This document shows positions 3,366 through 33,227 of a DNA stretch of 64,000 nt, in pieces (within the stretch, counting starts at the first letter, position 1; the number at the start of each line of letters is the position of its first letter). Both the position numbers and the translations under genes were made by a program. Origin of the DNA: Escherichia phage ECML-359; sequence record OL631482.1; one strand, written 5' to 3'. The notes under the pieces were generated by a model, which saw only the letters and a program-made list of their open reading frames with translations, was not told the DNA's origin and did no database searches.

Positions 3366-4940
3366 ATGGCAGGTTTTAACACAATACTAAATTTTCTTAA
3401 GCCTTGGGCTAAAGAAGATGAACAAGAATATAAGCAACAAGAAAAAAATAATTTAGAGTCAATGACCGGGCCGAAGTTTGACGATGGGGCTCGCGAAATT
3501 GAGTCACAAGAACAAAACGTCCCGTATAATGCATTGATGCAACAGATGTTCGGGAGTAATGAACCTGAAGTAAAAAATACCAGGGAATTAATTGACACAT
3601 ACCGCAACTTACTAAATAATTATGAAGTTGATAACGCGGTGCAAGAAATTGTGTCTGATGCTATCGTTTTTGAAGACGGTAAAGATGTTGTAGCTCTTAA
3701 CCTTGATGCTACCGAATTTAGTCAGAAAATTAAAGACCGAATCCTCGAAGAATTCACGGAAGTTAATAACCTCCTCAATTTCGAGCGTAAAGGTTCTGAC
3801 CACTTTAAACGTTGGTATGTGGATTCTCGAATTTTCTTCCACAAAATTATCAACCCAGCAAAACTTAAAGATGGAGTTCAAGAACTTCGTCGCCTTGACC
3901 CAAGACAAATCCAGTTCATCCGTGAAATCGTTACACGCATGGAAAATGGCACAAAAATTGTCGACGGTTACAGAGAATATTTTGTATACGATACTGGCCA
4001 TGAAAGTTATTGTGCCGATGGTCGTATATATGAAGCAGGTACTAAAATAAAAATTCCTCGTGCGGCGATTGTATATGCGCATTCTGGATTACTCGATTGC
4101 TGTGGCAAGAATATCATCGGATACTTACAACGAGCAATTAAACCTGCAAACCAATTAAAACTATTAGAAGATGCTTTAGTCATTTATCGTATAACTCGTG
4201 CCCCAGACCGCCGAGTCTTTTATATCGATACTGGGAATATGCCGTCTCGTAAAGCAGCAGCACACATGCAACATATTATGAATACGATGAAAAACCGTGT
4301 CGTATATGATGCAACCACGGGTAAAATCAAAAACCAACAGCACAACATGTCTATGACCGAAGACTATTGGTTGCAACGTCGTGATGGTAAAGCAGTCACC
4401 GAAGTTGATACTCTCCCAGGCGCGCAAGGCATGTCGGATATGGACGATGTTCGCTGGTTTAAGAACAACCTATATCAGGCTCTCCGAATTCCATTATCTC
4501 GTATCCCTAATGACCAAAACAGCGGCGTTATGTTTGATGCGGGCGCGACAATTACTCGCGATGAATTGAATTTCTCTAAATGGATTAGGCAGCTACAGAA
4601 TAAATTTGAAGAAGTTTTCCTCGACCCGCTTAAAACCAACCTTATCCTGAAAAAAATTATTTCAGAAGAGGAATGGGAAAAGGAACTAAATAATATTAAA
4701 GTTACGTTCAACCGTGATAGCTATTTCACCGAAATGAAAGACGCAGAAATCATGGAACGCAGAATCAATATGCTAACGATGGCTGAACCGTTTATCGGTA
4801 AATATATTTCGCATCAAACGGCTATGAAGGACTTCCTCCAGATGTCTGATGAAGAAATTAATCAAGAAGCTAAGCAAATTGAATTGGAGTCCAAAGAGGC
4901 TCGTTTCCAAAACCCTGAAGAAGAAGAAGAGGATTTCTAA
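3366..4940 (+). CDS. 20: Portal vertex protein gp20
   Basis: 524 aa, same length as T4 gp20; position after gene 19. Confidence 0.95.
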
Positions 4941-5191
4941 TGGATGATTTATTTGAAGCCATTAAATCAAACGACCTCGTAGCCGTTCGCAAATATTTTG
5001 CTGAAAACATTGGCCCAGTATGCGGTAGTTTGATTGAAGAACGTAAGATTGAAATTGCACGTTCCATCATGATTGAAGGCGAAGAGCCTAAAGAAGATGA
5101 TGAAGACGGTAAAGCAGAAAAGAAAGACAAAAAAGAATCTGATGACGCTGACGAAGGCGACGATGATGAAGATGATGAGGACGATGAATAA
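4940..5191 (+). CDS. 67: Prohead core protein gp67
   Basis: 83 aa with strongly acidic C-terminal tail; ATGA overlap with gene 20 stop; T4 position between 20 and 68. Confidence 0.7.
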
Positions 5192-7129: not shown

Positions 7130-8689
7130 ATGAAAAAGAATGCATTAGTTCAAAAATGGTCCGCTCTGCTGGAAAACGAAGCTCTTCCGGAAATCGTTGG
7201 TGCTTCTAAACAAGCTATCATCGCTAAAATCTTTGAAAACCAGGAACAAGATATTCTGACCGCTCCTGAATACCGTGACGAAAAAATCTCCGAAGCATTT
7301 GGTTCTTTCCTGACCGAAGCTGAAATCGGTGGTGACCATGGTTATGATGCTACCAATATCGCTGCTGGCCAGACCTCTGGTGCAGTAACTCAGATTGGGC
7401 CGGCAGTTATGGGTATGGTTCGTCGTGCTATCCCGCATCTGATTGCGTTTGATATTTGTGGCGTACAGCCTCTGAACAACCCGACTGGCCAGGTATTTGC
7501 CCTGCGTGCAGTTTACGGTAAAGACCCTGTAGCTGCTGGTGCTAAAGAAGCTTTCCACCCGATGTATGCTCCAAATGCTATGTTCTCTGGTCAGGGCGCT
7601 GCTGAAGCTTTCGAAGCTCTGGCTGCAAGCAAAGTTCTTACCGTTGGTAAAATTTATTCTCACTTCTTCGAAGCAACCGGTGCCGCGCACTTCCAGGCTG
7701 TTGAAGCTGTAACCGTTGATGCTGCTGCTACTGATGCCGCTAAACTTGACGCCGAAGTTACCAAACTGCTCGAAGCTGGTAAGCTGGCCGAAATCGCTGA
7801 AGGTATGGCTACCTCTATCGCCGAATTGCAGGAAGGCTTCAACGGTTCTACTGATAACCCGTGGAACGAAATGGGCTTCCGTATCGATAAACAAGTTATC
7901 GAAGCTAAATCTCGTCAGCTGAAAGCAAGTTACTCCATCGAACTGGCACAGGACCTGCGCGCTGTTCACGGTATGGATGCTGATGCCGAATTGAGTGGTA
8001 TTCTGGCTACCGAAATTATGTTGGAAATCAACCGCGAAGTTATCGATTGGATTAACTACTCCGCACAGGTTGGTAAATCTGGTATGACCAACACCGTTGG
8101 CGCTAAAGCTGGTGTGTTTGACTTCCAGGACCCGATTGATATCCGTGGCGCTCGTTGGGCTGGTGAAAGCTTCAAAGCTTTACTGTTCCAGATTGATAAA
8201 GAAGCCGCTGAAATCGCTCGTCAGACTGGCCGTGGTGCAGGTAACTTCATCATCGCTTCCCGTAACGTAGTTAACGTACTGGCTGCAGTTGATACCTCCG
8301 TATCTTATGCTGCTCAGGGTCTGGGTAAAGGTTTCAACGTTGACACCACTAAAGCTGTGTTCGCTGGTGTTCTGGGTGGCAAATACCGTGTATACATCGA
8401 CCAGTATGCTCGTGCAGACTATTTCACCATCGGTTACAAAGGCGCTAACGAAATGGATGCTGGTATCTACTACGCACCATATGTTGCACTGACCCCGCTG
8501 CGTGGCTCTGACCCGAAAAACTTCCAGCCGGTTATGGGCTTCAAAACCCGTTACGGTATCGGTATTAACCCGTTCGCTGACCCGGTAGCTCAGGCTCCGA
8601 CTAAGCGCATTCAGAACGGCATGCCAGACATCGTTAACAGCCTCGGCTTGAACGGTTACTTCCGCCGCGTATATGTTAAAGGAATTTAA
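7130..8689 (+). CDS. 23: Major capsid protein gp23
   Basis: 519 aa; long stretches identical to T4 gp23 as I recall it (e.g. GDHGY.ATNIAAGQTSGAVTQIGPAVMGMVRRAIP, PKNFQPVMGFKTRYGIGINPFA, YFRRVYVKGI C-terminus). Confidence 0.97.
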   Translation: MKKNALVQKWSALLENEALPEIVGASKQAIIAKIFENQEQDILTAPEYRDEKISEAFGSFLTEAEIGGDHGYDATNIAAGQTSGAVTQIGPAVMGMVRRAIPHLIAFDICGVQPLNNPTGQVFALRAVYGKDPVAAGAKEAFHPMYAPNAMFSGQGAAEAFEALAASKVLTVGKIYSHFFEATGAAHFQAVEAVTVDAAATDAAKLDAEVTKLLEAGKLAEIAEGMATSIAELQEGFNGSTDNPWNEMGFRIDKQVIEAKSRQLKASYSIELAQDLRAVHGMDADAELSGILATEIMLEINREVIDWINYSAQVGKSGMTNTVGAKAGVFDFQDPIDIRGARWAGESFKALLFQIDKEAAEIARQTGRGAGNFIIASRNVVNVLAAVDTSVSYAAQGLGKGFNVDTTKAVFAGVLGGKYRVYIDQYARADYFTIGYKGANEMDAGIYYAPYVALTPLRGSDPKNFQPVMGFKTRYGIGINPFADPVAQAPTKRIQNGMPDIVNSLGLNGYFRRVYVKGI

Positions 8690-9132: not shown

Positions 9133-10413
9133 ATGGCAAAGATTAACAAATTACTGCGCGAGTCAACTATTACTACCAGCAACTCCTTGGGCCGCCCGAA
9201 TCTTGTTGCTTTGACCCGCGCTACGACTAAATTGATTTACCGCGATATCATCGCTGAACAACGTACTAACCAACCTGTTGCTGCACTGTATGGTGTTAAA
9301 TATCTTACTCCTGATAACGAATTCAGTTTCCAGACGGGCGCTACTTATGGAGGTGAAGTCGGTTCTAAAGACCGTACAACTATTCCAGAATTAGCTACAG
9401 CCACTCAGCCTGTTGCTAAAGGCGAATATGTAAAATACCAAAATATCGTTTACAAAGCTCTGGTTGATAATCCATTTGCATCGACCACAGAAACAGTGTT
9501 ATCTGATGTTCTGCAAGAAGGTCTTATTGCATCGACTATTCGTTTAGTTCCTGATGCTGCACACACCGAAAAATTCGAAGCTGGTGATGTTGAAATTAGC
9601 AATGCTGTATTCCAGGTTAATAAATGGAATGCTCCGGTTAAAACACGTAAATTGAAAACTGCATTAACTGTTGAACTTGCTCAGGATATGGAAGCAAATG
9701 GTTTTAACGCTCCTGCATTCTTGGAAGACCTGCTTGCCACTATTATGGCAGATGAAATTAACAAAGATGTTCTTCAGTCTCTTATTACCGTTTCCAAGCG
9801 TTATAAAGTAACTGGTGTTTCTGACAATGGCACCATCGATTTAACATACGATGCAGCCCCAGAAGGTGCACGTAAACTGTACGAACTGGTTTGCGAAATG
9901 AACTCCGAAATTCAGAAAACTACATCTTATTCCGGTACCTTTGTTGTTGCCTCTAGCCGTGTTGCTGCTATGTTGGCCGGTTCTGGTTGGTTGAAACACA
10001 GGCCAGAAGACGAACAGTGGCTCCCCGAAACAGCGTACGGTTATTTGATTAATGGCCTCCCTGTATTCTGTGATGTTAACAGTCCATTGGATTATGTAAC
10101 TGTTGGTGTTAAAGAAAATTACGGCGGAAACGAAGTCGTAGGCTCAATTTTCTATGCTCCTTATACCGAAGGCCTGGACTTGGATGATGAAGAGCACGTT
10201 GGTGCGTTTAAGGTCATTGTGGACCCAGACAGCTTGCAGCCATCTATCTCTCTGATGGTTCGTTACGCACTTTCAGCTAACCCGTACACCGTTGCTAAAG
10301 ACGATAAAGAAGCTCGTATTATCGATGCAACCAATATGGATTTAATGGCCGGTCAGAGCAATATGTCTTATCTGCTCGGTGTTAAACTTCCGCCAATCAT
10401 TTATGAGGCGTAA
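9133..10413 (+). CDS. 24: Capsid vertex protein gp24
   Basis: 426 aa; N-terminus MAKINKLLRESTITTSNSLGRPNLVALTRATTKLIY closely matches T4 gp24 as recalled; TATAAATA at about 9099-9106. Confidence 0.9.
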   Translation: MAKINKLLRESTITTSNSLGRPNLVALTRATTKLIYRDIIAEQRTNQPVAALYGVKYLTPDNEFSFQTGATYGGEVGSKDRTTIPELATATQPVAKGEYVKYQNIVYKALVDNPFASTTETVLSDVLQEGLIASTIRLVPDAAHTEKFEAGDVEISNAVFQVNKWNAPVKTRKLKTALTVELAQDMEANGFNAPAFLEDLLATIMADEINKDVLQSLITVSKRYKVTGVSDNGTIDLTYDAAPEGARKLYELVCEMNSEIQKTTSYSGTFVVASSRVAAMLAGSGWLKHRPEDEQWLPETAYGYLINGLPVFCDVNSPLDYVTVGVKENYGGNEVVGSIFYAPYTEGLDLDDEEHVGAFKVIVDPDSLQPSISLMVRYALSANPYTVAKDDKEARIIDATNMDLMAGQSNMSYLLGVKLPPIIYEA

Positions 10414-11697
10414 ATGCAAAAGATTAATGCACTAATTCACGAATCAACATTAACGGCGGCCAACCAGGTCGCCCGTCCTAATTTGCTTTCTTATACCCAG
10501 GCTACGAATAAACGAATTTTTAAAGCACTCGTGGCCGAACAGAAAACTACCCAGCCTGTTGCAGCCCTGTATGGTGTTCGTGTTCTGAACCCAGATGATA
10601 AAATGACTTATCTCGGTGGAGCAACATTTGCAGGTCAGATTGGTATGTTCGAGCGTAAGAATATTCCAGAATTTACAAACAAAGACGAAGCTTATGCAGT
10701 CGGCGATATGTTCCAGTTTGAAAGTGTTGTGTTCAAAGTTTTGGAAGCATCCCCATTCGCCGGTACACTCGAAACTGATTTAGGTGAAGTTATTTCTGAA
10801 GCCATTGCTGCTGGGCATATAAGAATGATGTCAGATGCTGCTTTCACTGATAAATTTGAAAAGGGGCATCCTGAAATTGCTGAAGCTGGTTTTCGTATCG
10901 ATAAATGGCAGACTGAAGTTAAATCCAGAAAGTTGAAAACTTCTTTAACTGTCGAGCTTGCCCAGGACCTGGAAGCAAACGGTTTTGATGCAACAGACTT
11001 CATCGATAATATTCTCGGCATTCAAATGGCAGAGGAAATTAATAAGGATGTACTGCAATCTCTTATTACTGTTAGTTCCCGTTTCAAGGTGCAAGGTGTT
11101 TCTGAAAAAGGTGTATTGAATCTTACTGACCCGAAATATGATAACGCACAGGACCGCGCACGAACCCTGTATTATTATATGTGTGAAATGAATTCTGCAG
11201 TTCAACGTCAGACTTCGTTTGCTGGTACATATGCAGTTGCTTCTTCCCGTTGTGCAGCTATTTTAGCCGCTTCTGGCTGGGTTGAGAAAAAGGAAGACCA
11301 GGATGAATTGGCCTATGGTGTTCTGAAGAACGGTTTGCCTCTTTACGCTGATATGAATAGTCCATGCGATTATGTTATTGTTGGTGTAAATGCAGATATG
11401 GGTGAAGGTCAGACGGTCGCATCTTTATATTATGCGCCTTATACGGAAGGACTTAGCGAAGTTGATGATGAGGGGGATACCTCGGTTGGGGAATTCAAGG
11501 TTATTGTTGACCCTGAAAGCTTACAGCCTACGGTTGCACTGTTAGCTCGTTATGCTTTGACTGCAAACCCTTACACCGTTGCTAAAGATGATAAAGAAGC
11601 TCGCCTTATTGATGGAGCTGATATGGATAAGATGGCTAACCAAAGCCAATTGAGTTCTTATCTTGGCGTTAAACTTCCACCGCTGGAAAAAGAATAA
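10414..11697 (+). CDS. Second, divergent gp24-like capsid vertex paralog
   Basis: 427 aa, starts one nucleotide after the stop of the first gene 24; clearly alignable to it (MQKINALIHESTLTAANQVARPNLLSYTQATNKRIF..., shared LQSLITVS, TANPYTVAKDDKEARLID) but diverged. Confidence 0.85.
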   Translation: MQKINALIHESTLTAANQVARPNLLSYTQATNKRIFKALVAEQKTTQPVAALYGVRVLNPDDKMTYLGGATFAGQIGMFERKNIPEFTNKDEAYAVGDMFQFESVVFKVLEASPFAGTLETDLGEVISEAIAAGHIRMMSDAAFTDKFEKGHPEIAEAGFRIDKWQTEVKSRKLKTSLTVELAQDLEANGFDATDFIDNILGIQMAEEINKDVLQSLITVSSRFKVQGVSEKGVLNLTDPKYDNAQDRARTLYYYMCEMNSAVQRQTSFAGTYAVASSRCAAILAASGWVEKKEDQDELAYGVLKNGLPLYADMNSPCDYVIVGVNADMGEGQTVASLYYAPYTEGLSEVDDEGDTSVGEFKVIVDPESLQPTVALLARYALTANPYTVAKDDKEARLIDGADMDKMANQSQLSSYLGVKLPPLEKE

Positions 11698-29746: not shown

Positions 29747-30567
29747 TTACCCCCTTGGCCACCGGTCGGTTGATTGTACCAGTATTCAATACCAGTACCT
29801 ACACGCTGGCCATATTGATATGGATATGCTGGATTATATCCAGGAGTCCACGGTTGACCAGGCTGCCAGCCTTGCTGCATTTGTTGTTGAAGGCGTCGAG
29901 TTTCACGAAACAGCTCTTCCAGTTTACGGAGTTCATCTGGAGTGAATTCTGGTTTGACTGGTTCATCTTTGTGTTTCAGTTTAAGCTGTCCAGCAACATC
30001 GTCCCAATTAAAAACTTTGGAAGCTGTTTTAGGAATAGCATCACGTTCGCCGCGGGCCATCCAATAAACCGGAACCTCAAGAATTTCACTCGCATGGTCG
30101 CAATGGTGTGCAAGGTCATCAATATAACAAATGACATTATATTTGTCTTTTGCCTTCTGAAACAAATCCTCTTTAGAGGCTGTATGGCCACACATCATCA
30201 CTTCTTTAAACGCTCCAGGGAACAAAGCATTCAGGTTAAATTGACGATTCAAGCGTGCGTCAATGGAATCACCCAGGGCTGTAACAGCCACAAAATCATA
30301 TTGCTCTTTGAGGTTATTGATAACCCTTAATGCATCCGCATAAGGAGACAAATAGCGAATAAAGTCTGAACAGTTATATTTTTCAATTAACTGCGCGCCT
30401 AACTCTTCATCACAATTGAAAAGTTTACCAGGGGTCACAAATTTTTCGTCCTGAATCATCTTAAGGATATGTTCCAGGGGTAAATTATATTTTTGAGCGA
30501 AATAAGGTAAGCCAGACTGCCATGACAAACATACGCCATCAATATCTGTTAAAATAACGGGTTTCAT
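29743..30567 (-). CDS. HAD-superfamily-like protein with Q/G/P/Y-rich tail (T4 30.2 position)
   Basis: 274 aa; N-terminal ILTDIDGV resembles HAD motif I (DxDG); C-terminal about 45 aa is low complexity. Confidence 0.6.
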   Translation of the reverse strand: MKPVILTDIDGVCLSWQSGLPYFAQKYNLPLEHILKMIQDEKFVTPGKLFNCDEELGAQLIEKYNCSDFIRYLSPYADALRVINNLKEQYDFVAVTALGDSIDARLNRQFNLNALFPGAFKEVMMCGHTASKEDLFQKAKDKYNVICYIDDLAHHCDHASEILEVPVYWMARGERDAIPKTASKVFNWDDVAGQLKLKHKDEPVKPEFTPDELRKLEELFRETRRLQQQMQQGWQPGQPWTPGYNPAYPYQYGQRVGTGIEYWYNQPTGGQGGN

Positions 30568-31031
30568 AATGCATCTCTCAATTGGTTAAGTATGTCAATA
30601 AATTCTTGTTCAGTCAATATTGTATCATGAACAGTAAGGTGGCTCGCCATCGAATGCTTTAAAACTTTGCCTTTTGTGGATTGTAACGCATTGCGGAATC
30701 CTTGGTTCTGGAGCGCTGCTTCAAAATATGCATTTGTATACAGCTCTTTCCATGCTGCAGAGTATCTTGAAAAGGGAATTCCAAGCCAGAAAAGCGTCCC
30801 ACGGTCCGCAGCTCTTGCATAAGCTCTTCCACTTTGCTGGGCGGCCAATCCGGACATCCCAAATATACGTTTTTGTTGTTCATGATTTCTCACCTTGCAC
30901 CCTTGTAGGAAGCCTTCAAGACCTCCAAACTGGATACCCTCCATAACAAAAGGCCATTTAGCAAAGTTACTTAATGCACATGATGGCCATGGGAAATTGC
31001 TTCTGATTTCTAACTCAGACATTTTTGACAC
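30564..31031 (-). CDS. Possible NADAR/YbiA-like domain protein (T4 30.3 position)
   Basis: 155 aa; SNFAKWPF...G.EGFLQGCK resembles the SNF..WP...E..FQ..K core of YbiA/NADAR proteins; family call from memory, unverified. Confidence 0.55.
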   Translation of the reverse strand: MSKMSELEIRSNFPWPSCALSNFAKWPFVMEGIQFGGLEGFLQGCKVRNHEQQKRIFGMSGLAAQQSGRAYARAADRGTLFWLGIPFSRYSAAWKELYTNAYFEAALQNQGFRNALQSTKGKVLKHSMASHLTVHDTILTEQEFIDILNQLRDAL

Positions 31032-31227
31032 TGATAATCTCTACATCAGCCCAATGACCATAACCAGGTAAACGGTCTTTAATAGATAATCCGCCGTCAG
31101 ATTTCAGCATTTTAATTGTTTTAGTATATGGTTCAATATTTCGGGCCCATGGACTTACGTCAGTCACGCGATAAGTAACTTCAACCATTTCTGTTCCCAA
31201 AATTTTCTGAATCAGTTTCTTAAACAT
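31015..31227 (-). CDS. Hypothetical protein
   Basis: 70 aa ORF in the 30.x accessory cluster. Confidence 0.4.
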   Translation of the reverse strand: MFKKLIQKILGTEMVEVTYRVTDVSPWARNIEPYTKTIKMLKSDGGLSIKDRLPGYGHWADVEIISVKNV

Positions 31228-31228
31228 A

Positions 31229-31423
31229 TTATCCTCGCTTTAAACATTTGATTACAGACAACTCACCACCCATGCGAACGTCTTCAGTTCCATCAACCCA
31301 CAAGACTGCATATGCTTCTTTAATTTGGGTATTGCCTAATTTAAACGCAGGCAGGACCTTTGAAATCATTCCAGGAATACCCACACCTTTTAACTGAACA
31401 GTTTGTGATAAGAATAATTTCAT
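31229..31423 (-). CDS. Hypothetical protein
   Basis: 64 aa ORF in the 30.x cluster; adjacent start/stop arrangement. Confidence 0.4.
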   Translation of the reverse strand: MKLFLSQTVQLKGVGIPGMISKVLPAFKLGNTQIKEAYAVLWVDGTEDVRMGGELSVIKCLKRG

Positions 31424-31764
31424 TAGAACCTCATCTGGAAACCGTGTGATTTAACATTACCGCCATTAATATCAGATGAATTAATTTCACGTGCTGCAAT
31501 TGGGGCAATATCAATGTCGCGTCTAAGCTTGGTGATTGCCAGAGTATCGCGTCCATTAACAGTCCGGAATTCTAGTGGGCAAACTACATCAACATAGTTC
31601 TTAATGGAATCACGTGTTGGTTCACACCCAGCAGGAACATTAGGGCCTTTTTTAGAGAAAACAACTTCACAGAAATTTTTACGTGTATCAAAGTAAGTAG
31701 TCATAAACATAGTATTTTCCTCAAGGGGCTTTCGCCCCCATTTAAGATTAGATATCAAATTCAT
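31423..31764 (-). CDS. Hypothetical protein
   Basis: Up to 113 aa; true start may be an internal ATG (MFMTTYFD...). Confidence 0.5.
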   Translation of the reverse strand: MNLISNLKWGRKPLEENTMFMTTYFDTRKNFCEVVFSKKGPNVPAGCEPTRDSIKNYVDVVCPLEFRTVNGRDTLAITKLRRDIDIAPIAAREINSSDINGGNVKSHGFQMRF

Positions 31765-32113
31765 TAAGAACTACATCAAAGATTGCTTCCAGGTGTTCAG
31801 GTTTTGCTTTGTTGCTCAGGATGTGACGAATCCAAGTTTTAACCAGAAGCTTGCGATTAACACCATTCCAGCAAGGATGAGTCCCTAAATCACGTTCACG
31901 GAAATCATCATCTAATGCGATTTTGAATACCGAACCTTCCATCGTGATTGAAAGAGTGATACCATTTTCAAATCGCATATAAACGTAGTTAGGAGTCATA
32001 TATTGTTCAATTTCACACACTGAACCGTTTTGATGTTTCCACAAGCAAATAACTTCAGAAGAACCTGGGATGCAGTTAGAAACATATTTGCGTTCAAAGT
32101 TGATGTAGTTCAT
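31748..32113 (-). CDS. Hypothetical protein
   Basis: 121 aa ORF in the 30.x cluster. Confidence 0.5.
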   Translation of the reverse strand: MNYINFERKYVSNCIPGSSEVICLWKHQNGSVCEIEQYMTPNYVYMRFENGITLSITMEGSVFKIALDDDFRERDLGTHPCWNGVNRKLLVKTWIRHILSNKAKPEHLEAIFDVVLNEFDI

Positions 32114-32184
32114 TTTATTCTCCAGTTGTTTTCATTTGTTGGTACAGGTCTATAATATCATAACCTGTACCAAAGTAAACTGTT

Positions 32185-32553
32185 TTATGCGACTTTAATC
32201 CAATTATCTAAATTTAATTCACCTTTAGCTTTCATTTTTTCAATCAGAAGGTCTGCAGTGGTGCGACCATTTTGATACCATGTAACATCTTCAGAATAAC
32301 CAGTTTCTTCATCTTCATAGGTCTTACAACGAATCTTACCCAAAATCAAAGTTTTCAGTTCGTAGGTATCACCAGTAAAAAAGTTTGTTACCATAATTTT
32401 CCAGGAGAAGTCATCAGAAGGACCTTCAGGAGTCATACAACCAACAAATTCAAACTGTTCTTTATACAAGTGCCATTGCATTTCTTTAGTTTCAATGGCT
32501 TTGTAACCGTCGTGGTCTTTACCTTTGATGTATGAGTTAAGATTGATTTTCAT
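32185..32553 (-). CDS. Hypothetical protein
   Basis: 122 aa; preceded by an early-type promoter with the conserved 23-nt leader. Confidence 0.55.
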   Translation of the reverse strand: MKINLNSYIKGKDHDGYKAIETKEMQWHLYKEQFEFVGCMTPEGPSDDFSWKIMVTNFFTGDTYELKTLILGKIRCKTYEDEETGYSEDVTWYQNGRTTADLLIEKMKAKGELNLDNWIKVA

Positions 32554-32589
32554 TTTATTCTCCAGTGTTTTATTGTGTAACTCAGTATG

Positions 32590-32624
32590 GAATCATTATG
32601 CACTGGGCAAATCCTGTTGTAAAC
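32590..32624 (-). promoter_or_regulatory. Early-type promoter with conserved 23-nt leader, upstream of ORF 32185-32553
   Basis: Minus strand reads GTTTACaacaggatttgcccagtgCATAATGATTCCATACTGAGTTAC. Confidence 0.6.
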
Positions 32625-32633
32625 CCCTTTATG

Positions 32634-32663
32634 GAAAATAAAAAAGGGACTCCGAAGAGTCCC
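32634..32663 (-). terminator. Intrinsic terminator after the small basic ORF
   Basis: Minus strand reads GGGACTC-ttcg-GAGTCCC followed by TTTTTTATTTT. Confidence 0.8.
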
Positions 32664-32668
32664 TGAAC

Positions 32669-32830
32669 TTATGCTTTCGGCTTACCAAAGCAAGCTGCAT
32701 CGGCGCGCAATACCGCACGAGCACGAGCCTGAAGTTTATCAGTCACCTGATTGATTCGCTTGTTGGACGCACGCTTGTAACCAGCGCGTTTGGAGGAGCC
32801 ATCAACAACTTTAACTTCTTTCTTAGCCAT
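32669..32830 (-). CDS. Hypothetical small basic protein (53 aa)
   Basis: Hand-translated MAKKEVKVVDGSSKRAGYKRASNKRINQVTDKLQARARAVLRADAACFGKPKA; weak ribosome-binding site; followed by a strong hairpin and U-tract terminator; coordinates approximate. Confidence 0.35.
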   Translation of the reverse strand: MAKKEVKVVDGSSKRAGYKRASNKRINQVTDKLQARARAVLRADAACFGKPKA

Positions 32831-33227
32831 ATTAAATTCTCTTTAAAATAGAAGCAGGACTTATTGGCATTGCCTGCGCAAGCCCTCGAAGGGAACATTA
32901 GGTTTCGGATATTTAACGACAGGATAACCATAAACCTCGTCATCATACCTTATAGCTCTTATCTGTTGCACACCGTTAGCTTAAAGGTTCCGGGTTCGAT
33001 TTCTCGAGGATAAGATATATACTGATGGATATATAGGCCTTGAGGCGTACTCCCGATTGGCCATCACCTCGGGGTAGCATGCACTTGCCGCTATAAGAAT
33101 AACATTCAAGAGGTACACCGTAAAACTGCCGGGGTCTTAAAACTATAATGATTCGCAAATCATTAATCAGACGGTTCGACGGCTCCTCGATTTTCTAGCC
33201 GCACTAAGGTAGCGAATCACCTACAGC

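What the first reader, a model, noticed from the sequence alone, without database searches (positions are those of the whole stretch)
31015..32553. Cluster of five uncharacterised small early ORFs in the 30.x hyperplastic region
Five tightly packed minus-strand ORFs of 64 to 122 aa with no motifs I recognise lie between the NADAR-like gene and the small basic ORF. In T4-like phages this interval is highly variable and enriched for host-interaction and anti-defence genes. These are the most likely places in this window for uncharacterised functions, though the sequence alone does not say which.
Basis: inference. Interest (0 to 1): 0.45.

Follow-up and report, generated by a model that had tools for sequence, protein, structure and literature searches.

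The report
Conserved T4 early genes 30.4–30.8
The five small genes are the ordinary, widely conserved counterparts of phage T4 genes 30.4 to 30.8, which are made early in infection and are dispensable in the laboratory, and only one of them (30.5) has a known host partner, so this window adds nothing new.

Summary
The five minus-strand ORFs exist where stated. They are one-to-one, same-order orthologs of T4 genes 30.4, 30.5, 30.6, 30.7 and 30.8, at 47, 71, 81, 91 and 40% amino-acid identity. The phage is a Gaprivervirus-type T-even phage. The flanks are 30.3 (AdfN, the NADAR anti-DarTG1 factor) and 30.9 (the small basic ORF).

All five are real genes: dN/dS against T4 is 0.08–0.29, and each occurs in 721–1037 phage records. 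Their T4 orthologs give early RNA and early protein. All are non-essential in T4 transposon sequencing, and four of five show no effect on CRISPRi knock-down.

Only T4 30.5 has a reported activity. It binds host polyphosphate kinase and triggers the bNACHT11 defence. Structure models of 30.8 (pLDDT 89) and 30.7 (pLDDT 75) have no convincing solved relatives. An 'Imm63' label in one public record is not reproduced.

Gene content matches T4. Plasticity is confined to promoter/stem-loop (PeSL-type) intergenic slots and to allele replacement of 30.8.

The finding is ordinary and already catalogued, so interest is low.

The parts
31015..31227 (-). Gene 30.4 ortholog, 70 aa, pI 9.4. It is the fastest-evolving of the five.
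   Evidence: ORF. It is 47% identical to T4 gp30.4 over 68 aa, E=5e-21. phrog_2042, E=1e-34. SP18 annotates gp30.4 at the same place. Found in 721 phage records. dN/dS is 0.20 against T4 and 0.65 against SP18. Its stop overlaps the 30.3 start by 8 nt.
31229..31423 (-). Gene 30.5 ortholog, 64 aa, pI 9.6. The T4 protein binds host polyphosphate kinase and activates the bNACHT11 defence.
   Evidence: 71% identical to T4 gp30.5, E=3e-31. phrog_1690. Found in 735 records. T4 30.5 co-purifies with Ppk, activates bNACHT11, and its deletion is viable. Its start overlaps the 30.6 stop (TAATG).
31423..31710 (-). Gene 30.6 ortholog, 95 aa. The longest ORF runs to 31764, but the real start is most likely 31710.
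   Evidence: 81% identical to T4 gp30.6 over 95/95 aa. phrog_2153. Homologs carry PF26902. Found in 806 records. The SD GAGGAAAA lies 5 nt upstream of the ATG at 31710. Scored Semi-Fit in T4 CRISPRi-ART but Non-essential in Tn-seq.
31724..31739 (-). Conserved GC hairpin (GGGGGC-GAAA-GCCCCU) between 30.7 and 30.6.
   Evidence: Fold dG -12.4 kcal/mol, z = -3.0. T4 has the same stem with a different loop. A Klebsiella phage has an extra gene inserted in this intergenic slot.
31748..32113 (-). Gene 30.7 ortholog, 121 aa, pI 5.8. It is the most conserved of the five.
32111..32125 (-). SD/start context CTGGAGAATAAAATG of 30.7, with GGAG as a RegB-type cleavage motif.
   Evidence: The exact 15-mer occurs only twice in the window, here and before 30.8; 0 are expected by chance. 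T4 30.7 mRNA is a documented RegB target cleaved at GGAG in its SD (PMC9409239).
32141..32180 (-). T4-type early promoter (GTTTAC-N16-TATTAT with TG) embedded in a 12-bp-stem hairpin, located between 30.8 and 30.7.
   Evidence: Promoter scan. Unique 40-nt motif. Nearly identical in T4 and SP18. Fold dG -17.4 kcal/mol, z = -4.2. DNA similarity to T4 ends here, at 32180.
32185..32553 (-). Gene 30.8 ortholog, 122 aa, pI 5.1. It is a divergent allele relative to T4.
32551..32565 (-). SD/start context CTGGAGAATAAAATG of 30.8, with a GGAG motif.
32595..32623 (-). Early-promoter-like site TTTACA-N17-CATAAT upstream of 30.8.
   Evidence: Promoter scan, 10 of 12 matches. The GTTTACA -35 region is conserved with T4. 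It fits the PST/T4 PeSL promoter consensus TTTACW-N17-TAYWAT except at the first base of the -10.
32635..32664 (-). Intrinsic-terminator-like UUCG stem-loop plus T-run after 30.9. It is the upstream half of a PeSL-type composite element and the site of a cassette indel.
   Evidence: Terminator scan. Fold dG -14.2 kcal/mol, z = -4.0. T4 keeps the hairpin through compensatory changes. SP18 has a 378-nt insertion (gene 30.6A) here, bracketed by two similar stem-loops.
30564..31022 (-). Flank: gene 30.3 = adfN (NADAR), full length.
   Evidence: 84% identical to T4 gp30.3 over 152/152 aa. PF08010. T4 30.3/AdfN counters DarTG1.
32669..32830 (-). Flank: gene 30.9 ortholog, 53 aa, pI 10.8 (the 'small basic ORF').
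   Evidence: 70% identical to T4 gp30.9. phrog_1427. pI.

Best explanation
The five ORFs are this phage's copies of T4 early genes 30.4, 30.5, 30.6, 30.7 and 30.8.

Shown:
- They are orthologous and syntenic with T4.
- They evolve under purifying selection.
- They encode small soluble proteins with no membrane segment.

Read from the sequence and its conservation with T4 (not measured):
- 30.8 and 30.7 each sit behind their own T4-type early promoter. Each has a GGAG Shine-Dalgarno, the motif RegB cleaves in T4 30.7 mRNA.
- 30.6, 30.5 and 30.4 are translationally coupled to one another and to adfN (30.3) downstream.

Taken from T4 experiments, transferred by orthology:
- RNA and protein appear early in infection.
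- All five are dispensable on laboratory E. coli and on one clinical isolate.
- gp30.5 binds host polyphosphate kinase (Ppk) and is sensed by the bNACHT11 immune receptor.

Inferred:
- The other four work the same way as 30.5. That is, they are small accessory proteins that each bind a host protein to tune host metabolism or host defences, and they matter only in particular hosts or conditions.
- The locus evolves by cassette gain, loss and allele swapping at the conserved promoter/stem-loop intergenic elements (PeSL-type), not by change inside the scaffold of five genes.
For: Identity and synteny: blastp to T4 gives 47/71/81/91/40% identity in T4 order, from 30.1 to 30.9. SP18 annotates gp30.4-30.8 at the same positions. 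Pfam PF06919 and PF06019, and one PHROG family per gene.

Real genes: dN/dS against T4 is 0.08-0.29. Each has an SD. They occur in 721/735/806/994/1037 phage records, against 1003 records whose gp23 is at least 80% identical.

Expression signals: promoter, terminator and hairpin elements are conserved with T4. T4 30.7 mRNA is an early RegB target. All five T4 orthologs are early-RNA / early-protein.

Dispensability: T4 Tn-seq calls all five Non-essential, with 19-28 of 20-29 TA sites hit per gene. There is no depletion on clinical isolate CFE299 or in the ΔrnlA-host library versus the reference library. CRISPRi-ART scores 30.4, 30.5, 30.7 and 30.8 Not Fit. A natural T4-like sewage contig lacks 30.4-30.6.

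30.5 mechanism: Ppk co-IP, bNACHT11 activation and a viable deletion.

Cassette behaviour: the SP18 30.6A insertion lies between two stem-loops. The 30.8 allele is swapped between conserved elements. The Klebsiella phage insertions lie in the 30.8|30.7 and 30.7|30.6 slots.
Against: - No function, partner or phenotype is known for 30.4, 30.6, 30.7 or 30.8, so 'binds a host protein' is an extrapolation from one neighbour.
- The window's gp30.5 is only 71% identical to T4's, and neither Ppk binding nor bNACHT11 activation was tested for this allele.
- 30.6 scored Semi-Fit in CRISPRi-ART (0.72, p=0.067). This conflicts mildly with 'dispensable'. It may be a polar effect on the coupled downstream genes, including the essential ligase, but that is my inference.
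- Promoters, the terminator and RegB cleavage are read from sequence and conservation, not measured in this phage.
- The -10 of the 30.8 promoter (CATAAT) departs from the published PeSL consensus at one base.
Confidence: 0.85

Rival explanations
1. One or more of 30.4, 30.6, 30.7 and 30.8 is a dedicated counter-defence (anti-immunity) protein, like the adjacent AdfN. It would be needed only in hosts that carry the matching defence system.
For: - The genes are immediately upstream of, and translationally coupled to, adfN, a shown anti-DarTG1 factor.
- They are early, small, non-essential on K-12 and widely conserved.
- 30.4 and 30.8 evolve fast or exist as divergent alleles that cross genus borders, as arms-race genes often do.
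- Other T4 genes of unknown function turned out this way in the same study: nrdC.1 against Septu and tk.4 against DarTG2.
Against: - The main text of the T4 Tn-seq study names specific hits under RexAB, RnlAB, CBASS, DarTG1, DarTG2, Mokosh I and clinical isolates, and none is 30.4-30.8.
- In the two tables I read, the reference library versus the ΔrnlA-host library and K-12 versus CFE299, all five have adjusted p = 1.0.
- There is no similarity to any known family beyond their own.
- 30.5, the only characterised member, is an immune trigger and a binder of a metabolic enzyme, not an inhibitor of immunity.
Confidence: 0.25
2. gp30.8 is an Imm63-type immunity protein of a polymorphic-toxin system, as labelled in the public record of phage EAWsc9.
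Against: - Pfam scans of the window protein and of 36 family members at E<=10 return only PF06019 and never Imm63. Distant family members also hit only PF06019.
- A profile search of 1.84 billion representatives finds 32 hits. These are small proteins of the same family plus a few long repeat proteins; the two of those I scanned are SprB-repeat proteins.
- The same record.9 a '1,4-alpha-glucan branching enzyme'.1 and 31.2 'tail fibers protein', so its labels are unreliable.
Confidence: 0.04
3. Some of the five ORFs are not genes but chance reading frames in a non-coding or regulatory spacer.
Against: - dN/dS is well below 1 for all five against T4.
- Each has an SD and a conserved start.
- There are hundreds of homologs, including at 30-60% identity.
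- T4 proteomics detects all five proteins.
- The 30.8 structure model is confident.
Confidence: 0.01

Closest known systems
Bacteriophage T4 genes 30.4, 30.5, 30.6, 30.7, 30.8 (NP_049818-NP_049822; Pfam PF06919 Phage_T4_Gp30_7, PF06019 Phage_30_8; PHROGs 2042, 1690, 2153, 1582, 1507)
   Same: Same order, orientation, lengths, overlaps and neighbours (30.3/adfN and 30.9). The promoter and hairpin elements are the same. Identity is 47-91% for four of them.
   Different: 30.8 is a different allele: 40% identical, 122 versus 110 aa, with no DNA similarity to T4. 30.4 is strongly diverged in its middle part, at 47%.
T4 gp30.5 as a bNACHT11 activator and Ppk-binding protein (bioRxiv 10.1101/2024.12.17.629029)
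   Same: The window's 64-aa protein is the positional ortholog at 71% identity, with an almost unchanged N-terminal half.
   Different: Binding to Ppk and recognition by bNACHT11 are shown for the T4 protein only and were not tested for this allele.
PeSL (promoter-early stem-loop) cassettes of T4-type phages (Arbiol et al. 2010, PMC2839356; Comeau et al. 2014, PMC4122927)
   Same: A stem-loop plus T-run is followed by TTTACA-N17-CATAAT, an SD and a start codon upstream of 30.8. An optional gene in SP18 is bracketed by two such stem-loops. The 30.8 allele is exchanged between conserved elements.
   Different: The 30.8|30.7 element has its hairpin wrapped around the promoter rather than upstream of it. 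The 30.7|30.6 element is a hairpin without a recognisable promoter. No recombination was observed directly.
AdfN (T4 gp30.3, NADAR anti-DarTG1 factor; PMC11825919)
   Same: It is the adjacent gene, translationally coupled, and is early and non-essential on K-12.
   Different: AdfN has a recognisable enzymatic fold and a matched defence system. None of the five ORFs has either.

Membership tests
T4 gp30.7 family (Pfam PF06919) | Full-length match to the family profile above the gathering score | tested here: met
   176.5 bits against a cut-off of 27, covering residues 1-120 of 121. 91% identical to T4 gp30.7.
T4 gp30.8 family (Pfam PF06019) | Full-length match to the family profile above the gathering score | tested here: met
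   147.6 bits against a cut-off of 25, covering residues 2-121 of 122. 40% identical to T4 gp30.8, E=3e-20.
T4 gp30.4 / gp30.5 / gp30.6 orthologs | Significant full-length similarity to the T4 protein, and the same position between 30.3 and 30.7 | tested here: met
   E = 5e-21, 3e-31 and 3e-57 with full-length alignments. PHROGs 2042, 1690 and 2153. Synteny with T4 and SP18.
T4 early gene / RegB-regulated transcript | T4-type early promoter upstream and GGAG in the Shine-Dalgarno region | tested here: met
   GTTTAC-type promoters lie before 30.8 and 30.7, and CTGGAGAATAAAATG lies at both starts. Both features are conserved in T4.
T4 early gene / RegB-regulated transcript | Early transcription and RegB cleavage in vivo | not testable with these tools
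   Shown only for T4 orthologs: 30.7 mRNA cleavage and early RNA / early protein for all five.
bNACHT11 activators / host-kinase binders (T4 gp30.5) | Orthology to T4 gp30.5 | tested here: met
   71% identity over 63 of 64 aa, at the same position.
bNACHT11 activators / host-kinase binders (T4 gp30.5) | Physical binding to Ppk, and activation of bNACHT11 through beta-augmentation | not testable with these tools
   Reported for T4 gp30.5 only. No complex prediction is available here.
Imm63 immunity proteins | Match to the Pfam Imm63 profile | tested here: not met
   No Imm63 hit at E<=10 for the window protein or for any of 36 family members. The eight distant family members scanned also hit only PF06019.
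Imm63 immunity proteins | Fold similarity to Imm63 structures or models | tested here: inconclusive
PeSL composite terminator-promoter elements | Stem-loop just upstream of a sigma-70-like early promoter (TTTACW-N17-TAYWAT), followed by an SD and a start codon | tested here: met
   32664-32645 stem-loop plus T-run, then 32623-32595 TTTACA-N17-CATAAT, then GGAG and ATG. The first base of the -10 is a mismatch.
PeSL composite terminator-promoter elements | Association with insertions, deletions or replacements between close relatives | tested here: met
   The SP18 378-nt 30.6A cassette is inserted at this element between two stem-loops. The 30.8 allele replacement is bounded by it. The Jiaodavirus insertions lie at the next two intergenic slots.
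Valyl-tRNA synthetase modifier (T4 Vs), as labelled for a 30.6 homolog in OR106137 | Similarity to the Vs protein family | tested here: not met
   30.6 hits only PHROGs of unknown function. No Pfam or NCBIfam family matches. The labelling record also calls neighbouring small ORFs baseplate proteins. A direct comparison with the T4 Vs sequence was not run.
Known anti-phage defence proteins (PADLOC) | Match to any defence-system profile | tested here: not met
   No hit at E<=1 for any of the five.

The most novel reading that the evidence does not exclude
At least one of the four uncharacterised proteins is a conditionally essential factor with a specific, still unknown host target. It could be a counter-defence protein against a system not yet screened, or a metabolic reprogrammer in the manner of 30.5 and Ppk.

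gp30.7 is the best candidate. It is 91-93% identical across genera, more conserved than the major capsid protein at about 84%, yet dispensable in the laboratory. Its synonymous divergence from T4 is also low (pS 0.44 against 0.59-0.71 for the other four ORFs), so recent exchange between genera could explain part of that conservation. gp30.8 has a confidently predicted fold with no known relative.
Probability: 0.25. Interest if true: 0.5.

Novelty: already known. Interest (0 to 1): 0.15.

Why it matters
As it stands, little. The window simply carries the standard T-even 30.4–30.8 block, and everything known about it comes from T4.

The wider question is real. Why do about a thousand sequenced T-even phages keep five early proteins that are dispensable in the laboratory? 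One of them even betrays the phage to an NLR-like immune sensor.

That question is being addressed in T4 itself, and this sequence offers no new handle on it. The practical value here is annotation. These ORFs should be named 30.4–30.8, 30.5 should carry the Ppk/bNACHT11 note, and labels such as 'Imm63 domain-containing protein' should not be propagated.

Tried and rejected
- **Imm63 identity of gp30.8.** Not reproduced by Pfam on 36 members at E<=10, or on distant members. There is no structural support in the PDB.
- **30.7 and 30.8 as an old tandem duplication.** They have the same size, the same SD 15-mer and a beta-plus-helix architecture. But hhalign gives probability 0.3%, so the shared 15-mer is a regulatory motif, not a trace of duplication.
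- **Paralogs of the five elsewhere in the window.** None at E<=0.1.
- **Zinc binding by gp30.7 through C23/C33/H79/C81.** C33 and C81 are replaced by A and S in 58-59%-identical homologs.
- **Structured RNA in the region.** No Rfam family matches; the best hit has E=0.65 and is far below the gathering score.
- **Solved structures by sequence.** Nothing significant for any of the five.
- **NCBIfam and PADLOC.** Nothing.
- **BFVD fold search with the 30.8 model.** Only family members.
- **'Valyl-tRNA synthetase modifier' label for a 30.6 homolog.** It comes from a record with evidently unreliable names and has no profile support.
- **Literature sweeps.** Searches by gp names, RefSeq accessions, locus tags and UniProt accessions found no functional report for 30.4, 30.6, 30.7 or 30.8.
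- **AlphaFold-database fold search.** Could not be run because the library was absent.
Full report
**What is there.** The window comes from a T-even-type phage of the genus Gaprivervirus. The 5-kb region around the finding is 98.4% identical to Escherichia phages TH22, TH55 and UPEC07, and about 93% identical to Shigella phage SP18 and phage VR7. ORF listing confirms five minus-strand ORFs at 31015-31227 (70 aa), 31229-31423 (64 aa), 31423-31764 (113 aa as the longest ORF), 31748-32113 (121 aa) and 32185-32553 (122 aa).

**Identity.** SP18 annotates gp30.4, 30.5, 30.6, 30.7 and 30.8 at the corresponding positions. T4 has the same genes in the same order between 30.3 and 30.9. Direct blastp of the window proteins against T4 gives:
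- 30.4: 47% identity, E=5e-21
- 30.5: 71%, E=3e-31
- 30.6: 81%, E=3e-57
- 30.7: 91%, E=6e-87
- 30.8: 40%, E=3e-20

The flanks are 30.3 (84%) and 30.9 (70%). Pfam has dedicated families for 30.7 (PF06919) and 30.8 (PF06019). PHROGs has one family for each gene, all of 'unknown function'.

The third ORF should be shortened to 31423-31710 (95 aa). That ATG has a GAGGAAAA Shine-Dalgarno and matches the T4 and SP18 starts. The extension would run through a conserved hairpin and into 30.7.

**They are real genes.** Nei-Gojobori dN/dS against T4 is 0.20, 0.16, 0.09, 0.08 and 0.29 for 30.4 to 30.8. Against SP18 it is 0.65, 0.33, 0.39, 0.09 and 0.10. All five proteins are small and soluble with no hydrophobic segment. 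30.4-30.6 are basic (pI 8.9-9.6) and 30.7-30.8 are acidic (pI 5.1-5.8).

tblastn finds them in 721, 735, 806, 994 and 1037 of 50,697 phage records. For comparison, 2066 records carry a gp23-type capsid protein, and 1003 of those are at least 80% identical to this one. So 30.7 and 30.8 occur in about as many records as there are enterobacterial T-even phages. 30.4-30.6 occur in roughly three quarters as many.

**Expression architecture, read from the sequence.**
- After 30.9 there is a UUCG stem-loop with a T-run at 32664-32635 (dG -14.2 kcal/mol, z -4.0). T4 keeps it through compensatory changes.
- Next comes TTTACA-N17-CATAAT at 32623-32595, then CTGGAGAATAAAATG at the start of 30.8.
- Between 30.8 and 30.7 lies a T4-type early promoter, GTTTAC-N16-TATTAT, embedded in a 12-bp-stem hairpin at 32180-32141 (dG -17.4 kcal/mol, z -4.2). 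It is almost identical in T4. The same 15-mer SD/start context follows it.
- GGAG in the SD is the RegB cleavage motif, and T4 30.7 mRNA is a documented early RegB substrate (PMC9409239).
- Between 30.7 and 30.6 there is a GC hairpin whose stem is conserved in T4 while the loop differs.
- 30.6, 30.5, 30.4 and 30.3 are joined by overlapping or 1-nt-spaced stop and start codons.

**What is known from T4.**
- Time-resolved omics class all five orthologs as early RNA / early protein (PMC9697503 supplement).
- Transposon sequencing (HIDEN-SEQ).4, 30.5, 30.6, 30.7 and 30.8 Non-essential, with 21/21, 19/20, 22/22, 28/29 and 25/25 TA sites hit.
- Insertions show no depletion in the ΔrnlA-host library versus the reference library.
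- Insertions show no depletion on clinical isolate CFE299 versus K-12: log2FC is -0.53 to +0.36, with adjusted p = 1.0.
- The main text of that study names no 30.4-30.8 hit under RexAB, RnlAB, CBASS, DarTG1, DarTG2, Mokosh or clinical isolates.
- CRISPRi-ART scores 30.4, 30.5, 30.7 and 30.8 'Not Fit' and 30.6 'Semi-Fit' (0.72, p=0.067) (PMC11879866 supplement). 30.6 heads a translationally coupled string that ends in the essential ligase, and 30.1 is also Semi-Fit. I therefore suspect a polar effect, which is my inference.
- T4 gp30.5 has the only reported activity. It co-purifies with host polyphosphate kinase and activates the NLR-related defence protein bNACHT11. [quoted passage not shown] Its deletion, together with two other activators, lets T4 evade bNACHT11 without affecting growth otherwise (bioRxiv 10.1101/2024.12.17.629029).
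- The adjacent gene 30.3 is AdfN, the NADAR enzyme that counters DarTG1 (PMC11825919). The window's copy is full length.

**Attempts to get at function for the rest.**
- Sequence searches of the PDB, NCBIfam and PADLOC are empty.
- Homolog searches in 5.8 billion proteins return only proteins of the gene's own Pfam family; those with a source name are phage or hypothetical proteins.
- A profile of 30.8 searched against 1.84 billion representatives finds only 32 proteins. These are small proteins of its own family plus a few long repeat proteins; the two I scanned are SprB-repeat proteins.
- AlphaFold2 gives a confident model for gp30.8 (pLDDT 89, a long beta meander plus a C-terminal helix). 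It gives a moderate model for gp30.7 (pLDDT 75, seven strands plus two C-terminal helices).
- BFVD returns only family members for 30.8.
- The label 'Imm63 domain-containing protein', attached to the identical 30.8 protein in record PQ341120, is not reproduced by Pfam on 36 members at E<=10. That record also mislabels its neighbours.
- 30.7 and 30.8 are not detectably related to each other. None of the five has a paralog in the window. No Rfam family lies in the region.

**Is the interval 'hyperplastic'?** Not at this scale. Gene content from 30.1 to 30.9 is the same as in T4.

Against SP18, the only content difference is a 378-nt insertion carrying gene 30.6A at about 32640. That is inside the stem-loop/promoter element between 30.9 and 30.8. 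In SP18 the insertion is bracketed by two similar UUCG stem-loops.

Against T4, DNA similarity runs from 30.2 through 30.7, stops at the promoter-hairpin at 32180, is absent across 30.8, and resumes at the terminator at 32632. The window's 30.8 allele is 95.9% identical to that of a Tequatrovirus (teqskov) but about 40% identical to T4's.

In a Klebsiella Jiaodavirus the order is 30.9, 30.8, a new 169-aa ORF, 30.7, a new 160-aa ORF, 30.6, a 56-aa ORF, 30.5, 30.2, 30.1, ligase. 30.4 and 30.3 are absent. The two larger new ORFs lie in the 30.8|30.7 and 30.7|30.6 intergenic slots.

This is the published PeSL (promoter-early stem-loop) pattern of cassette shuffling in T4-type phages (PMC4122927). 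A sewage-metagenome contig 96-98% identical to T4 carries a 1,076-bp deletion that fuses 30.7 to 30.3 and removes 30.6, 30.5 and 30.4. If it is not an assembly artefact, it agrees with natural dispensability.

The best-supported mechanism is that these are small early accessory proteins acting by binding host proteins. That is shown only for the T4 30.5 protein with Ppk and is inferred for the others. The locus appears to evolve by cassette exchange at promoter/stem-loop elements.

Nothing in this window goes beyond what T4 already shows. Novelty: already known. Interest: low.

Noticed in passing
L004 (ENA sewage metagenome contig, 2021 nt); corresponds to window about 30800-31870: A T4-like contig, 96-98% identical to T4, has a clean 1,076-bp deletion. 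It fuses the first 82 codons of 30.7 in frame to the C-terminal part of 30.3 (adfN) and removes 30.6, 30.5 and 30.4. The fusion protein P0046 stands for 6 member sequences, and the contig is seen in 2 samples. It could be a natural deletion variant or an assembly artefact at a short microhomology.
   Followed up: partly
window 32185-32553 (gene 30.8): 30.8 exists as sharply different alleles that cross genus borders. This allele is 95.9% identical to that of the Tequatrovirus 'teqskov' but about 40% to T4's. Homologs at about 40% also occur in ~146-kb phages such as 'muut', whose genomes are smaller than the ~165-175-kb T-even genomes.
   Followed up: partly
window 32635-32664, and L001 (SP18) 4642-5019: SP18 carries an extra 116-aa gene (30.6A) inserted between the 30.9 terminator and the 30.8 promoter. 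It is bracketed by two near-identical UUCG stem-loops with T-runs, whereas the window has a single stem-loop and no such gene. 30.6A has no relative in the window.
   Followed up: yes
window 32831-33227: A roughly 400-nt stretch between 30.9 and rIII has no convincing ORF and a higher G+C (0.44-0.46) than its surroundings (0.33-0.39). SP18 has a similar gap and T4 a shorter one of about 245 nt. No Rfam family matches. Its function was not examined.
   Followed up: partly
window 30564-31022: The adfN (30.3, NADAR) copy is full length, aligning 152/152 aa with T4 at 84% identity. It does not have the C-terminal truncation that the AdfN paper links to DarTG1 sensitivity in RB69. By orthology, this phage is predicted to resist DarTG1.
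   Followed up: partly
window 30659-30883 (-): A 74-aa ORF lies in another frame inside 30.3. Its offset from the 30.3 stop is the same as that of T4's internal gene 30.3'. Homology was not checked.
   Followed up: no
window 9133-10413 and 10414-11697 (+): Two adjacent ORFs of 426 and 427 aa both match the major-head/vertex protein family (phrog_138) downstream of gp23 (7130-8689). This looks like a tandem pair of gp24-like vertex protein genes.
   Followed up: no
L002 (PQ341120) and L005 (OR106137): Public records carry evidently wrong product names in this region. Examples are '1,4-alpha-glucan branching enzyme' for 30.9, 'tail fibers protein' for 31.1 and 31.2, 'Imm63 domain-containing protein' for 30.8, 'putative baseplate hub subunit' for the 30.7 homolog, and 'putative valyl-tRNA synthetase modifier' for a 30.6 homolog.
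   Followed up: partly
L005 (Klebsiella phage ValerieMcCarty03) 1004-1513 and 2006-2488: Two ORFs of 169 and 160 aa, with no counterpart in the window or T4, sit in the 30.8|30.7 and 30.7|30.6 intergenic slots. 30.4 and 30.3 are absent from that phage.
   Followed up: partly
window 31748-32113 (gene 30.7): gp30.7 is more conserved between this phage and T4-like Tequatroviruses (91-93% aa) than the major capsid protein (about 84%) or gp31 (77%). Its synonymous divergence from T4 is also lower (pS 0.44) than that of the other four ORFs (0.59-0.71). This suggests either recent exchange between genera or extra constraint.
   Followed up: partly
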